Assembly (NCBI GenBank): GCA_964016885.1
Contig: OZ024742.1
Coordinates: forward strand, 229,214,001-229,278,000
DNA: 64,000 nucleotides
Reading direction: 5' to 3'
Origin: Eledone cirrhosa
Lineage: Eukaryota
A program made the translations under genes and the position numbers. The stretch's first letter is position 1. Every line of letters begins with the position of its first letter. Below the pieces are notes generated by a model. It was not told where the DNA came from and did no database searches. It saw only the letters and a list, made by a program, of their open reading frames with translations. This document shows positions 1 through 60,620 of the stretch, piece after piece.

Positions 1-184
1 ATAGGAAAATGTATGACCCCGACGGCAGAGCTCAAGCCGTTTCGACGGCTATTTATAGCCGTCGAAACGGCTTTAGCTCTGCCGTCGCGGTCAAACATTT
101 TTCTATTGCCCACTCCACTACCCTAAGTATTGAGTACTCTGGTGTGTTATGGTCCATCTCGTTCCTTACCACTCTTCCTTCGTT
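1..184 (+). mobile_element. Fold-back element family A, copy 1 (PLE pLTR-like; carries the 3' half of a hammerhead)
   Basis: Near-perfect palindrome 1-106 centred at ~53, then a ~78-nt tail running into (TA)n. Contains GAAA-CGGC..GCCG-TC at 64-86. Five other copies in the window. Confidence 0.75.
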
Positions 185-885
185 ATATATATATATATAT
201 ATATATATATATATATGTGTGTGTGTGTGTGTGTGTGTGTGTGTGTGTGTGTGTGTGTGTGTGTGTGTGAATGTTTGTGTGTGTGATTATGAATGTAAGT
301 ATACATACATATATATATACATACATACATATATATATATATAAAGAATAAAATTAAAACACATGATACTGGATTATAACAGCATTACATTTTATACACA
401 TTTAATCATTTTAAAATATTGTAATAATTCAGTATTCTGCAAATTGTAAATAGGACTTTGAATATAATGATAATTATTGAAACAGCAAATGAAATTTTCT
501 ATAAAAATAAATTGGTCTGTGTTTATTTAATATTACTTACGAGTTTATGTCTAAAATTTGATATCAATCTATAATTTATGGCAGAAATTAAACGATACAA
601 ATTTATAAAAAAACCTGTTCGATAATAACTTTGTTAACTTTTAATTGTATCACAAGTAAGATGCTAGAAAATGTTATACATGTTATGCGCTAGTTACTGT
701 AATACTATTTATATTACTAAATTATAAACAGATATTTCTTAAGTAATTTACTTTCTCTAGTAGGGAAAAAAATGGTTGAATATTGATTCATATTTAGTAT
801 AGATAGCAGCTTCATTATACATATATCTATAGCATAGAATCTTCTATTACTAACATTTAAATATGATATAATTGATTATTGAGAA

Positions 886-1140
886 GGGACATGGTTTAAT
901 GGGTTAAGGTGTTCCGTTCACGTTTGTAAGAACATAAGTTCTGTTCTCGGTAGCACATTCTGTCCTTGAACAAGACACTTTATTTCACGTTGTTCCATTC
1001 CACTCAGCTGGTAAAAACGAATTGTACCACCTCTAATTCAAAGAGCCCGCCTTGTTACACACTGTGTCACGATGAATCATTCTGAGAACTATGTTACGGG
1101 TGCATGTGTCTCAGGAATGTTCAGCCATTTGCTGTTCCGT
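886..1140 (+). mobile_element. tRNA-derived SINE, second family (degenerate)
   Basis: A-box-like head TGGTTTAATGG and body TGTCCTTGAACAAGACACTTTATTTCACGTTG, shared with 40411 and 42345. Confidence 0.6.
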
Positions 1141-1194
1141 TGTTACCATAACTGTGACACTCGTCATCAGAGGTCCAAAAAAAAGTTGATTGTA

Positions 1195-1500
1195 TCTTCT
1201 TGTGACGGTAAACTCTGCTAGTTGTAGACTGCGCATCAACATGATATATTTTTTCCTACAAAGTTCGATCACCAGCAGCAGAGTTTAAAGAGCAAAGATC
1301 AAGTCCAGTCCATAAGTTGACATTATCAAGCCATCATTATGGCTGACGGCCTCTGCTTCGATTACCAGGCAACCTTCTTTCCAGGAATATAGAATACCTT
1401 TCGATATAGAATACCATTTTTAACGATTTCTTTCATATATTTGACATTTCCCAAGTTGTTGTTCACCTCCAACAGAAACCTTTGGAATGTCCTGGTTTAT
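1195..1500 (-). mobile_element. RTE-like LINE 3' fragment (degraded)
   Basis: The reverse complement of 1230-1390 aligns by eye with the 3' end of the LINE at 8990-9140 (..GGCTTGATAATGTCAACTTATG..GATCGAACTTT..). Confidence 0.55.
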
Positions 1501-1719
1501 GTTACCTTCTGGTGGAGTTCAACGAATAGTAGTCAGCTTTGCTATGTCTGTCTGGTGTTATAGTAGATGGTATGAACTGAAATACTTCGCTGTTACTTCA
1601 TTTCTTTCCGTTCCGCTTTGCATCTATAGTATTAAAGCTGGTATATCTGTAGCGTAAGGAGTCTGCCAAGCTGGAGAGGGGGTGGCAAGTGTGTGGGAGT
1701 AGGAGAGGATGAAAGATAG

Positions 1720-1840
1720 ATATTACGCAATTTACAATTGCACATCCTCAGCAGGTTAACGCTGTTCATACTAGCGTGTACTGCTCCGATAATAAATCTA
1801 GCTGTCCTACGCTGTCATGAAACGTGACCTGTAAAAATAC
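1720..1840. repeat. Dispersed ~120-bp repeat, second copy at 3642-3787
   Basis: Both sites share CCTCAGCAGGTTAAC...CATACTAGCGTGTA.TGCTCCGATAATAAATCT.GC.GTCCTAC. Confidence 0.7.
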
Positions 1841-3240
1841 ATATATACGAGTGCAGTGCTGTGATTATTTCTTCTATCTTTCGCTTTGTCCCTTTTTCTC
1901 TTTCTGTTTCCTTTCGGTTGTATTCCAGCCTGGGGAGTGATGGGCTTCTTCAAGTTTTTATATATCCAAGATACGGCACGTGTCAGGACTGCGCTTCTAT
2001 GGCTTTATAAATTTTCTGTGGCTGGTGTAAACCACATTGCGAGGTTACACACCTCACAGCATTTAATTACTAAGAATAATAATTAATGCATGAAATGTAT
2101 GAATTACCTATATATGACCCTCCAAATGAATATTCACTTCAATTCACTTTCCTTTTGAACCGCCATGGCCTACGCAGCGTTTCAAGATGAGTCTGTGTAC
2201 CATCTCTTTCAATTCCCAGCTATCAAGAGACAGACCATCAAATGTCGTGAAATCTTTATGCATCTGCTCCATGGTATTATCCGTCCGTTTTCTTCTACAG
2301 ACGTCTATATTTTTTCCATGAATTTTTACTTGGAGTATGATCATAATCAATACATCAGATCTTGTTAAGTGACTGTACTCTCTATTTTTCCATTTTCTAC
2401 CGTGGTTAGCAATTCTTCGCACTTTTGCGCGTGATATGTACCAAATATCAACAATTAATCATAGAAGAACACCTCGAAATTAGCAGAGGTCTGAAGGACT
2501 TAAGACAACCTTATCATAATTATGTTTATGATGATGATAATCGTCACAGAAACTTTATGTTGATATGTTTTTATATTGACGTCGATAAATATTTGAACCT
2601 AATGTGTTGTGTATTCGGAAAACATCACAAACAATTAATAAATGTAAAAAAAACAAAAAAACAAAAACGACCAACAAAAACAAAAACAAAACAAGAAAAA
2701 CAAGAAACGAAAGTAAAACGAAAATAAAACGAAGAGACATGAGTAATAAAACTGTTAACTGCTTGGGGTTTTGTCATGGGTAGAGTCTGGAAAGAATTTC
2801 TGTAACAATCGCACTAAATAGATTTGGAGCAAAATTTAATTTTCCCCTCCTTTGTAAATGAGTTTGGGAACATTTCGATTTGTTATTGCTTCAAGCATAT
2901 ATTTGACATTTCTTCCACTTTGTTATGTTATTTTTGTATTTATATTTATCGAAACGCAAATTTCACGAGTTTTAAATTGGTTTGCTGATAGGAATTTTGT
3001 TAAATTTATAATATTTGTCGTTACTAATTATTTTCTCACTAGAAACTTCGATGCCTTTGCTGAGCTAAATCATATTTGACTTGAATAGAAGCGAAAGTTG
3101 TTGGGGTGGTTGTTATGGTTGTTATTTTTTAACGCATTGCTGGAATGTTTCGTCGTATTTATTAACAAAAGAAAACTCATAACTGAATTCTACAGTAGGT
3201 TACTGAAAGTTACGTTGGAATATATCGAGTATATATATAC

Positions 3241-58294: not shown

Positions 58295-58483
58295 AACGAA
58301 GGAGATGTGGTAAGGAACCAGATGGACCATAACGCACCAGAGTACTCAATACTTAGGGTAGAAGAGTGGGTAATAGGAAAAAGTATGACCCCGACGGCAG
58401 AGCTGAAGCCGCTTCGACGGCTATTCCAGAAATAGCCGTCGAAACGGCTTGAGCTCTGCCGTCGGGGTCAAACTTTTTCCTAT
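58295..58483 (-). mobile_element. Fold-back family A, copy 6
   Basis: Palindrome centred on GGCTATT-CCAGA-AATAGCC at ~58428. Tail on the left; (TA)n flanks. Confidence 0.85.
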
Positions 58484-59149
58484 ATATATATATATGTATA
58501 CACAATAAATATATGGATAGCCTCGCTGCCGAAGAAAAATATTTTTCGTAAAAAAAACGAAAAGCGAAAAAAAAAAAACATTTGTAATCGAGTTGCCAGA
58601 ATGTTCAGCAAATGGAAGACAGCGCGCTGTTTCAAGATTTATCAGTAGCCTTCCCTCAGAATGTACTGGCATGAAACATACTATAGAGCGTGTCTCCCTT
58701 GCCGTCCTCCGGGGAAACGCCTTCCCCATCCAGTCCGTCGGGTCTGTGGGGTATGGGGGGAGGGGGGCATCGCGAAACATTCCATATTTAGGTATCTGTG
58801 TTCTCACATGTAGAGGCACGTCCTTTACCATAGTGTTGTGTCCCTAAACGAAGTTTATTTCCTTTAATAGTTACAATGTAATTTGTCTGCAGTATGTATA
58901 CAATGAGATATGATTAAAATGTAGACTTTGTAATGTTTCACAGACCACACAGTTAAGAGACTGAAATCCTTACTAATGTATGTCTATATAGAATTTTGCG
59001 TGATTATCACTTGCTGCTCATTTGCATACAACAAAGAGAAAACAGCGGTTGCAAGATGTCATTTGCATATAGTGCGAATCTTGCTGGTTATATATATTTG
59101 GCAATAGCCCAAAGACAGTGTTTAAGCATAATAGAGTGGATGACTATAA

Positions 59150-59590
59150 TGATTTCTAGTATAGGCACAAGTCCAGCAATTTTGGTAGAGGGGAAAGTCG
59201 ATTAAATCGACCCCAGTGCGTGACTGGTACTTTATTTTATCGACAACGTAAGGATGAAAGGCAAAGTTAACCTCGGCGGGATTTGAACACATAAAGGGCC
59301 GTGACTCTATGCTGCATAGCATGGCGTCTGACCCTCTACCGATACTGCCAAACCACCGCCCTAGAGTGGATAACTATAATGATTTCTAGAATAGGCACAC
59401 GGTCAGCAATATTGGGGAAGAGGAAAGTCGATTAAATCGATTCAGTGCGTGACTGGTACTTTAATTTATCGACCCTGTAAGGATGAAAGGCAAAGTTAAC
59501 CTCGGCGGGATTTGAACTCAGATCCTAAAGGGCCATAACTCTATGGTGCAAAGCATGGCGTGCGACCCTCTACCGATACTGCCAATCGAC
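59150..59590 (-). mobile_element. Tandem pair of Meta-type SINEs
   Basis: Two full copies, each preceded by TAGAGTGGAT.ACTATAATGATTTCTAG. Confidence 0.85.
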
Positions 59591-60099
59591 AGCCATGTGG
59601 ATAAGTATAATAATAAGTAATACATGTGAGTAATTCGTTGAAAAAGTTAGTAATTAATTAGAGAAGTTAATTAGTATGGAATCCATATGAAGTTGCGTAA
59701 TATAAAAAATTCGAATTACATATAAAATAAAATATAAAATAAGATATAAAATATATTATAAAATCTGAAATATAAAGTATATGCCATGATACATAATACA
59801 TGATATATATATATAGTACATAACACCTAAAGTAAAAATCATAGTACAAGTTATAATATATGTATGTACACACACACACACAAACATGCACACACACACA
59901 TGCACACACACACTCACACACATATATAGACACTCACACACACTCACTCACACACATATATAGACACTCACACACACACACTCACACACATATATAGACA
60001 CTCACACACACACACTCACACACATATATAGACACACGTGAGCACTCGATGCGTAGTCTCCTGTATGTATTTTGGGATTGTACTAAACAGAGTGTAATA

Positions 60100-60398
60100 A
60101 TTGTTTCTATTTTGGGCACAAGTCCAGCAATTACCCCCAGTGCATTACTGCTGCTTTATTTTATCGATCCTGTAAGGATGAAAGGCAAAGCTATCCTTGG
60201 CGGGATTTGAGCTCAGAACGTAAATGGCCATAACTCTATGCTGTAAAGCATGGTGTCTGACGCTCTAACGATACTGCCAAATAATAATTGTTTCTACTTT
60301 AGGCACAAGGCCAGCAATTAACCAGTGCATTACTGGTACTTTATTTTATCGACCCCGTAAGGATGAAAGGCAAAGTCAACCTCGGCGGGATTTGAACT
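60100..60398 (-). mobile_element. Tandem pair of Meta-type SINEs (second copy truncated)
   Basis: 60100-60280 and 60286-60398, both with the diagnostic core. Confidence 0.85.
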
Positions 60399-60413
60399 GC
60401 CAAATAATAATAA

Positions 60414-60620
60414 TATGGACGAGGCGTTAAATTTTCATTACATTTATTGAGGTGCGACAAGCGTTTCGCGAATTATCAGCCCAAGGTTTGATCTGTGCCC
60501 AATTCTGGTTTCAAAAGCTCATCAGACTGCTGTTATCGTAATGATCGAACGCAATACGCGCGTCACACCTTAATGAATGTAATGAAAATTTGGCACCTCG
60601 TCCATACTATTATTATCCAC
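60414..60620. mobile_element. Family G fold-back element with an HHR-like motif on the minus strand (60451-60530)
   Basis: TATGGACGAGG..AAATTTTCATTACATT..AGGTG.GAC is inverted at 60556-60606. Minus strand GT-CTGATGA-GC..GC-GAAACGCTTGTC; the other arm has ACGCGCGTC. Confidence 0.6.

What the first reader, a model, noticed from the sequence alone, without database searches (positions are those of the whole stretch)
1..60620. Shared architecture across at least eight families of (TA)n-embedded fold-back elements carrying hammerhead ribozymes
Seen: families A (6 copies), B (3), C (4), D (2), E, F, G and H have unrelated sequences but the same plan. Two arms meet 5'-to-5' in ribozyme sense, and both 3' ends point outward, nearly always into (TA)n. 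One arm has a family-specific extra tail (about 78 nt in A, 63 in B, 50-57 in C, 58 in D, 118 in E). B, C, D, E and G contain type I HHR motifs, and A contains the 3' half of one. B and C are physically attached to PLE coding sequence elsewhere in the window. Established: PLEs have pLTRs with minimal HHRs, inverted/tandem insertions and microsatellite bias. Inference: this is a diversified population of non-coding ribozyme RNAs mobilised by PLE RT/GIY-YIG, with two fixed 3' ends per family (two priming events per insertion).
Basis: partly seen in the sequence, partly recalled or inferred. Interest (0 to 1): 0.85.

Follow-up and report, generated by a model that had tools for sequence, protein, structure and literature searches.

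The report
Penelope retrotransposon fold-back insertion scars
These short hairpin-shaped repeats sitting in TA microsatellites are real and are most likely the truncated, doubly primed insertion ends of Penelope-like retrotransposons, a layout already described for that class, with two families that look like non-coding passengers.

Summary
The elements are real. A (6 copies), B (3), C (4), D (2) and E (1) have head-to-head arms, an extra tail on one arm and (TA)n flanks. For A, raw reads from another sample show both 3' ends running into (TA)n.

Minimal type I hammerheads are confirmed in B (U3-A8 variant), C (compensatory pairs) and D: 8 hits against 0.4 in shuffles. E and G have only core strings or degenerate motifs. 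A has at most a 3' half.

B and C continue into Penelope-like coding sequence. C4 is the textbook case: an ORF-bearing arm without tail plus a short inverted arm with tail.

Inverted pLTRs, the one-sided tail, (TA)n targeting, minimal hammerheads on opposite strands and two initiation sites are all published. So B and C are best read as truncated ordinary insertions, not dedicated ribozyme RNAs. D and E (non-coding tandem units of 429 and 535 nt) are retrozyme-like non-autonomous candidates. A is unresolved.

Modest additions: tails of 55-170 nt, and 3-5 nt overlap with (TA)n at 7 of 8 visible junction classes.

The parts
1..183 (.). A1: fold-back, tail on right arm; left flank cut by window start
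23219..23427 (.). A2: fold-back with the longest symmetric arms; 80-nt tail on left
26923..27125 (.). A3: divergent A subfamily; both arms share the divergent letters
51764..51927 (.). A4: full tail-less arm (-) plus tail arm cut down to almost only the tail (+)
56028..56212 (.). A5: fold-back, tail on left; shares a (TA)n tract with the tail end of C4
58296..58480 (.). A6: fold-back, tail on left; stretch used for read laying
5438..5685 (.). B1: short tailed arm (-), longer tail-less arm (+) with U3-A8 hammerhead, core at 5598
15938..16105 (+). PLE endonuclease C-terminal fragment (56 aa, 68% identical to P0029), 5'-truncated at a (TA)n tract
   Evidence: tblastn E 2e-20
16106..17182 (+). B2: inferred 3' UTR ending in the B arm (16969 on) and tail, then (TA)n; single-armed
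   Evidence: continuity with the ORF fragment inferred from absence of a (TA)n break
18608..18965 (.). B3: near-perfect fold-back; U3-A8 hammerheads on both arms (cores 18712 -, 18796 +)
6374..7115 (.). C1: long tail-less arm (-) with hammerhead (core 6631), plus an inverted arm lacking its 3' end
15554..15912 (.). C2: internally deleted fold-back; tail arm starts inside hammerhead helix II
52086..52783 (.). C3: fold-back, hammerheads on both arms each with one core change (52338 -, 52590 +)
52966..55877 (-). C4 long arm: 5'-truncated, frameshifted PLE ORF (RT, linker cysteines, GIY-YIG-type end) plus 3' UTR with hammerhead (core 53208); no tail
55878..55955 (+). C4 short inverted arm: last ~17 nt of the pLTR plus 60-nt tail, then (TA)n
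25654..26864 (.). D1: two 429-nt non-coding tandem units (-, tail end) and one inverted unit (+, short end); minimal hammerhead in each unit
22183..22815 (.). D2: 51-nt inverted hammerhead piece (-) plus ~1.4 units (+) ending at the same tail end as D1
19005..21053 (.). E: 535-nt non-coding tandem units (99.6% identical), 2.3 on - and 1.5 on +; ends differ by 117 nt; hammerhead core strings without helix I; folds at a natural hairpin of the unit
60397..60618 (.). G: old fold-back (84% arm identity), degenerate hammerhead-like strings, (TAA)n-like ends
22840..23199 (.). H candidate: 51-nt arms, 170-nt tail on left, both ends in (TA)n, no hammerhead found
4100..5373 (+). Separate 5'-truncated Hydra-like PLE (RT thumb, endonuclease) with degenerate hammerhead (core 5308), ending in the (TA)n tract next to B1; start approximate

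Best explanation
The elements are head-to-head, one-tailed repeats in (TA)n, and are most likely the insertion products of several Penelope-like retrotransposon (PLE) families in which both arms were 5'-truncated. Inferred mechanism: the GIY-YIG endonuclease nicks both strands of a (TA)n tract. Each nicked end would anneal to a short UA-rich site in the RNA and prime reverse transcription at one of two family-specific sites, 55-170 nt apart; the sequence between them is the tail. Both cDNAs would stop early and be joined to each other, often at a natural hairpin, which gives 5'-to-5' arms. B and C are the 3' ends of coding PLEs (shown for C, strongly suggested for B). D and E are likely non-autonomous, retrozyme-like tandem units that use the same enzymes in trans. 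A is either a short non-autonomous RNA or the extreme end of a PLE whose cDNAs stall at one place. The hammerheads are predicted to be weak, dimer-type motifs and are probably not needed for the insertion step.
For: C4 = 2.9-kb ORF arm without tail plus 17+60-nt inverted arm with tail, the layout of PMC8557442 Fig. 2 legend and PMC3846280. B2 follows an endonuclease fragment. PMC11167929 shows in vitro that a PLE cleaves and extends both strands, prefers AT-rich DNA, starts at two internal sites that define the tail, and does not need hammerhead cleavage. Both A ends are fixed in raw reads of another sample: 977 reads run into (TA)n at the short end, 2870+1094 at the tail end, of 22,323 laid. 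In 4 of 12 two-armed A-D insertions plus E counted together (A4, B1, C2, C4 of A1-6, B1, B3, C2-4, D1, E, leaving out A3 as ambiguous), each arm holds sequence the other lacks. 14 of the 15 listed joints (99 not shown) are tail arms cut at variable places, 11 inside the tail. Arms within an A copy differ by 3.0 letters per 50 against 9.9 between copies. Overlap with (TA)n is 3-5 nt at 7 of 8 visible junction classes; random positions give 0.119 each, P about 2e-6. Hammerheads: 8 hits against 0.375 in 40 shuffles; 4 compensatory pairs in 4 C motifs.
Against: No coding sequence is attached to A, D, E, G or H in the window, and no genome was available. 11 of 12 A arms start within a 20-nt zone (4-24 nt upstream of the conserved motif), not the broad spread expected from random truncation. 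Unequal arms could also arise by later deletion in unstable palindromes, so two-fold priming is favoured, not proven. PMC11167929 found initiation at non-homologous sites, unlike the overlap seen here. The E left end and copy C2 have strict overlap 0. The overlap test uses few, hand-anchored classes; automatic anchoring failed for some copies. Tails exceed the published 30-40 bp. With one core mismatch allowed the hammerhead excess is weaker (17 against 7.3).
Confidence: 0.75

Rival explanations
1. All families are dedicated non-coding ribozyme RNAs (non-autonomous PLE parasites).
For: D and E are tandem units whose longest stop-free frames are 67 and 65 aa. A arms start in a narrow zone, and the A read consensus loses agreement about 11 nt beyond the centre. 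Non-autonomous PLE derivatives are published (PMC8557442 on MRC1; bioRxiv 10.64898/2026.07.22.740005).
Against: B and C run into coding sequence. A, E, G and H lack an intact hammerhead.
Confidence: 0.12
2. One priming event followed by cDNA or antisense-template self-priming (fold-back copy) makes the palindrome; the second end is joined by microhomology, and unequal arms come from later deletions.
For: A1, A2, A5, A6 and B3 have near-perfect centres. E folds at a natural hairpin. PMC3846280 favours self-priming. Arms within a copy are close relatives.
Against: C4 would need loss of about 2.9 kb from one arm. The short end is at one fixed site in 977 reads although two other TAT sites lie downstream in the A tail. 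Two initiation sites were seen in vitro.
Confidence: 0.1
3. The palindromes are MITE-like DNA elements or assembly/library fold-back artefacts.
For: No contig or read spans the whole A6 locus with its flanks; repeats were cut by the tool.
Against: Arms are not identical in 4 of 5 complete A copies. Family-specific tails recur at independent loci. Independent contigs bridge the fold-back centre and raw reads show both fixed ends. Centres vary, ends are asymmetric, and ORF-linked copies are PLEs.
Confidence: 0.03

Closest known systems
EN+ Penelope-like element insertions (Penelope/Poseidon, Neptune, Nematis, Hydra; PMC8557442, PMC3846280)
   Same: Inverted 5'-truncated pLTR head-to-head with the main copy, tail at one end only, (TA)n targets, palindromic junctions, solo pLTRs.
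   Different: Here most copies are truncated on both arms and many families sit together; tails are 55-170 nt against the published 30-40 bp.
PAc Poseidon in vitro mechanism (PMC11167929)
   Same: AT-rich target, both strands extended, two internal initiation sites bounding the tail.
   Different: PAc starts at sites not homologous to the cut DNA, about 7 nt apart by the text's coordinates or a tail-length apart by its genomic mapping; here 7 of 8 junction classes overlap (TA)n by 3-5 nt.
Minimal PLE hammerheads (PMC4209133)
   Same: Short helix I, palindromic 1-2 bp helix III, U3-A8 variant, pairs of motifs 100-700 bp apart on opposite strands ascribed to truncated PLEs.
   Different: Family A keeps only a possible 3' half, with a 4-bp helix III.
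Non-LTR retrozymes and non-autonomous PLEs (PMC7229834; bioRxiv 10.64898/2026.07.22.740005; MRC1 in PMC8557442)
   Same: D and E are non-coding tandem units of a few hundred bases with hammerhead motifs.
   Different: D has a minimal, not canonical, hammerhead and E has no helix I. Both carry the PLE inverted-plus-tail insertion signature, which I did not see described for retrozymes in the parts read.
L1 twin priming (recalled, not read; one search found only one review listing)
   Same: Two target-primed events giving an inversion.
   Different: In L1, as recalled, the two segments barely overlap; here both arms copy the same sequence.

Membership tests
EN+ PLE insertion | RT plus C-terminal GIY-YIG ORF attached (families B, C) | tested here: met
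   C4 ORF 62-71% identical to P0001, endonuclease end hit by a profile of relatives, E 2.5e-7; B2 fragment E 2e-20. Pfam itself gave no hit on the C4 pieces.
EN+ PLE insertion | ORF attached (families A, D, E, G, H) | tested here: inconclusive
   No tblastn or profile hit next to them in the window; no genome to search.
EN+ PLE insertion | Head-to-head inverted pLTR | tested here: met
EN+ PLE insertion | 3' tail on one end only | tested here: met
   longer than the published 30-40 bp
EN+ PLE insertion | (TA)n target preference | tested here: met
   G and the F candidate are exceptions
EN+ PLE insertion | Minimal type I hammerhead in the pLTR (B, C, D) | tested here: met
EN+ PLE insertion | Minimal type I hammerhead in the pLTR (A, E, G, H) | tested here: not met
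EN+ PLE insertion | Clade by RT phylogeny (Neptune or Nematis for B and C, Hydra for 4100-5373) | not tested
   Only motifs compared by eye with PMC8557442; no labelled references at hand.
Non-LTR retrozyme | Non-coding tandem units, each with a type I hammerhead (D) | tested here: met
   429-nt period, 95% identical units; motif intact in 2 of 3 D1 units, third has helix changes
Non-LTR retrozyme | Same, for E | tested here: inconclusive
   535-nt period and core strings in each unit, but no helix I
Non-LTR retrozyme | Self-cleavage and circular RNA expression | not testable with these tools
   Needs bench work; no RNA run was listed.
MITE / TIR DNA transposon | Symmetric fixed termini around a conserved interior | tested here: not met
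   Ends asymmetric, centres variable, ORF-linked copies are retroelements.

The most novel reading that the evidence does not exclude
These scars record the priming rule of (TA)n-targeting PLEs: both nicked target strands anneal, telomerase-like, to two UA-rich sites in the RNA. The same signature on D and E would be direct structural proof that animal retrozyme-like arrays are moved by PLE enzymes. Family A would be a very abundant ~150-nt non-coding PLE parasite that keeps only half a hammerhead, completed in trans or after splicing.
Probability: 0.25. Interest if true: 0.6.

Novelty: new member of a known kind. Interest (0 to 1): 0.3.

Why it matters
How PLEs make tandem and inverted insertions and choose microsatellites is named as an open question in PMC8557442. 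A genome with many short two-ended insertions is a ready dataset for testing two-fold priming against self-priming, and for testing annealing to (TA)n. D and E could link retrozyme-like arrays to PLE enzymes by insertion structure. For annotation, such elements are easily mistaken for MITEs, miRNA hairpins or assembly errors. The shared architecture itself is not new.

Tried and rejected
No whole genome is held, so genome-wide tabulation was limited to one read-laying run on family A.

Rfam: the whole-window E-value scan listed only microsatellite-driven miRNA-type matches among the 150 of 246 rows shown; gathering scan gave 0; short scans of C and E gave no hammerhead.

The first hammerhead descriptor was too strict (2 hits) and was relaxed.

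A 21-nt family A tail pattern found nothing in viral or metagenome contigs. P0001 gave two short metagenome loci; L001 has a hammerhead-like core and (TA)n after its ORF, not followed further.

Tails fold no better than shuffles: 6 tails and one arm piece, z between -0.8 and +1.6. So no conserved tail hairpin is shown.

Type II or III readings of the A motif were checked by eye and rejected: no core downstream. A splice-acceptor or ORF-end reading of the A upstream letters rests on weak loose-end consensuses and is not used as evidence.

TRF missed the D and E units (E exceeds its 500-nt limit); periods come from self-BLAST.

No RNA holder listed. Earlier scan notes: nothing returned. ARAGORN: 0 genes.

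Automatic junction anchoring mis-placed several copies. B3 was redone; the D1 tail end has a T-run change and was left at its automatic value, the class resting on D2.

Paper searches found no description of such elements in cephalopods. Subscription papers and Repbase/Dfam were not searchable, and no supplements were read; these may already list the families.
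Full report
Setting. The window is AT-rich animal DNA, dense in microsatellites. The best named relative of its longest PLE ORF is an Octopus vulgaris protein at 64% identity, so a cephalopod host is likely but not shown. 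No genome is held.

The observation. Self-BLAST and alignments recover A (6 copies), B (3), C (4), D (2), E and G. Arms meet head-to-head and one carries an extra 3' tail: A 78-80, B 56-68, C 55-61, D 61-62, E 117 nt. A further element at 22840-23199 has the same plan with a 170-nt tail. B2 has one arm only; C1 and D2 have an arm lacking its 3' end.

Not an artefact. In 4 of 5 complete A copies the arms differ (0-4 letters per 50), yet they resemble each other more than arms of other copies (mean 3.0 against 9.9). Laying four runs on A6 gave 24,603 contigs (X1) and 22,323 raw reads (X8, another sample). In X8, 977 reads run into (TA)n at the short end and 2870+1094 at the tail end. Several X1 contigs bridge a fold-back centre. 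No record spans the A6 locus with both flanks, so this locus is not verified individually. Runs labelled as two other organisms hold related sequence, mostly the tail (44 and 190 contigs).

Ribozymes. A minimal type I descriptor gave 8 hits against a mean of 0.375 (maximum 3) in 40 local dinucleotide shuffles: 3 in B, 4 in D, 1 in C. One core mismatch adds both C3 arms, but the excess falls to 17 against 7.3. B uses the U3-A8 core. Four C motifs keep 92% of pairs with 4 two-sided changes (0 of 500 shuffles reach the covariation score; only four related sequences). D matches Rfam HH9 weakly (E 0.009, below gathering); nothing reaches a gathering score. E has both core strings but no helix I. 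G is degenerate. A has GAAA, a 4-bp helix and GUC, but no 5' core within 70 nt of any of 6 centres.

Link to coding PLEs. C4 is one insertion. A 5'-truncated, frameshifted RT-endonuclease ORF on the minus strand (55877 to about 53490) runs through a hammerhead-bearing 3' UTR and ends without tail in (TA)n at 52966. At its 5' end sits an inverted piece of about 17 nt plus the tail. The short C palindromes are the same design with both arms cut short. B2 ends a stretch that starts with a PLE endonuclease C-terminus (15938-16105, E 2e-20); continuity is inferred. B1 only neighbours a separate Hydra-like PLE across a (TA)n tract. D and E are non-coding tandem units of 429 and 535 nt, in which the tail is simply the next stretch of the unit.

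What is already published. PMC8557442 (passages and section 11): inverted 5'-truncated copy next to the pLTR, a 30-40-bp tail often at one end, (TA)n targets, non-autonomous tandem derivatives. PMC3846280 (passages): tail on one inverted pLTR, palindromic junctions, solo pLTRs, a self-priming model. PMC4209133 (parts 1-2 of 4): minimal hammerheads, U3-A8, opposite-strand pairs 100-700 bp apart, low activity. PMC11167929 (parts 1-2 of 4): both strands cut and extended, two internal start sites defining the tail, hammerhead dispensable. PMC7229834 (passages) and bioRxiv 10.64898/2026.07.22.740005 (parts 1-3 of 5): retrozymes as PLE derivatives. PMC8969392 (passages) lists inverted pLTRs and 3' extensions as PLE traits. 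PMC13282606 (passages) counts 31 recently active Penelope-like families in O. vulgaris and has no main-text mention of ribozymes or palindromes.

Mechanism. Shown: geometry, fixed ends, ORF links, motifs. Inferred: two primings from the two nicked target strands. In A4, B1, C2 and C4 each arm holds sequence the other lacks, which one fold-back copy cannot give without later deletion. 14 of the 15 listed joints (99 not shown) are tail arms cut at different places. Later deletions could mimic this, least plausibly in C4. Where the template can be read past an end, the end overlaps (TA)n by 3 (A short), 5 (B short), 4 (C short; 0 in C2), 5 (D short), 3 (D tail), 4 (E right), 4 (H) and 0 (E left) nt. 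Random positions reach 3 or more with frequency 0.119, giving P about 2e-6 for 7 of 8. The test is small, partly hand-anchored and made after seeing the data. It suggests annealing-assisted priming, unlike the PAc result.

Unresolved. 11 of 12 A arms begin 4-24 nt upstream of the conserved motif. That fits a short RNA, a transcript start, or a stall and join at a natural hairpin. Without a genome, A's parent cannot be found.

Verdict. The finding is real and the PLE link is right, but the shared plan is the known PLE insertion layout. B and C are truncated coding elements, D and E are retrozyme-like candidates, and A is open. Interest 0.3.

Noticed in passing
window 5746-5922, 11601-11854, 17217-17434, 24388-25132, 49456-49624, 50996-51607, 59132-59619, 60096-60410: A SINE-like family of about 180-250 nt with more than 12 copies at 76-94% identity, some in tandem and one inverted pair; no tRNA call.
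   Followed up: no
window 3983-5373: Hydra-clade-like PLE (linker and C-terminal cysteine motifs as in PMC8557442, one cysteine changed) with a degenerate hammerhead and 3' end directly in (TA)n.
   Followed up: partly
window 39264-40310 (-): Another truncated PLE RT fragment, 56% identical to P0025, with no 3' UTR found; interrupted by other repeats.
   Followed up: partly
window 21229-21345 and 22065-22181: 117-bp inverted repeats (98%) around a 719-bp spacer, not in (TA)n, directly abutting the hammerhead piece of D2; class unknown.
   Followed up: partly
window 20260-20268: At the E fold point a short stretch replaces the usual sequence before the core and matches 10 nt upstream of the D hammerhead core; chance or template switch.
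   Followed up: no
window 58035-58088 with 58485-58538; about 51715-51750 with 51950-51980: A6 and A4 sit in the TA-rich centre of older inverted-repeat pairs, suggesting nested insertion into earlier fold-back elements.
   Followed up: no
window 27455-32470: Degraded LINE (ORF1-like, endonuclease-like and RT pieces; RVT_1 E 3.7e-15 at 30714-31412).
   Followed up: no
window 36443-37809 (-): Two fragments of an R2/R4-type LINE C-terminus (zf-RVT hit) between (TATG)n tracts, with a 280-bp duplicated segment.
   Followed up: no
window 46300-47980: About 1.6 kb of (TATG)n-type microsatellite giving spurious long ORFs and miRNA-family matches.
   Followed up: no
L001 1683-1790: A distant relative of the C ORF also has a hammerhead-like core after its stop, then (TA)n, then what looks like the start of the next ORF unit.
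   Followed up: no
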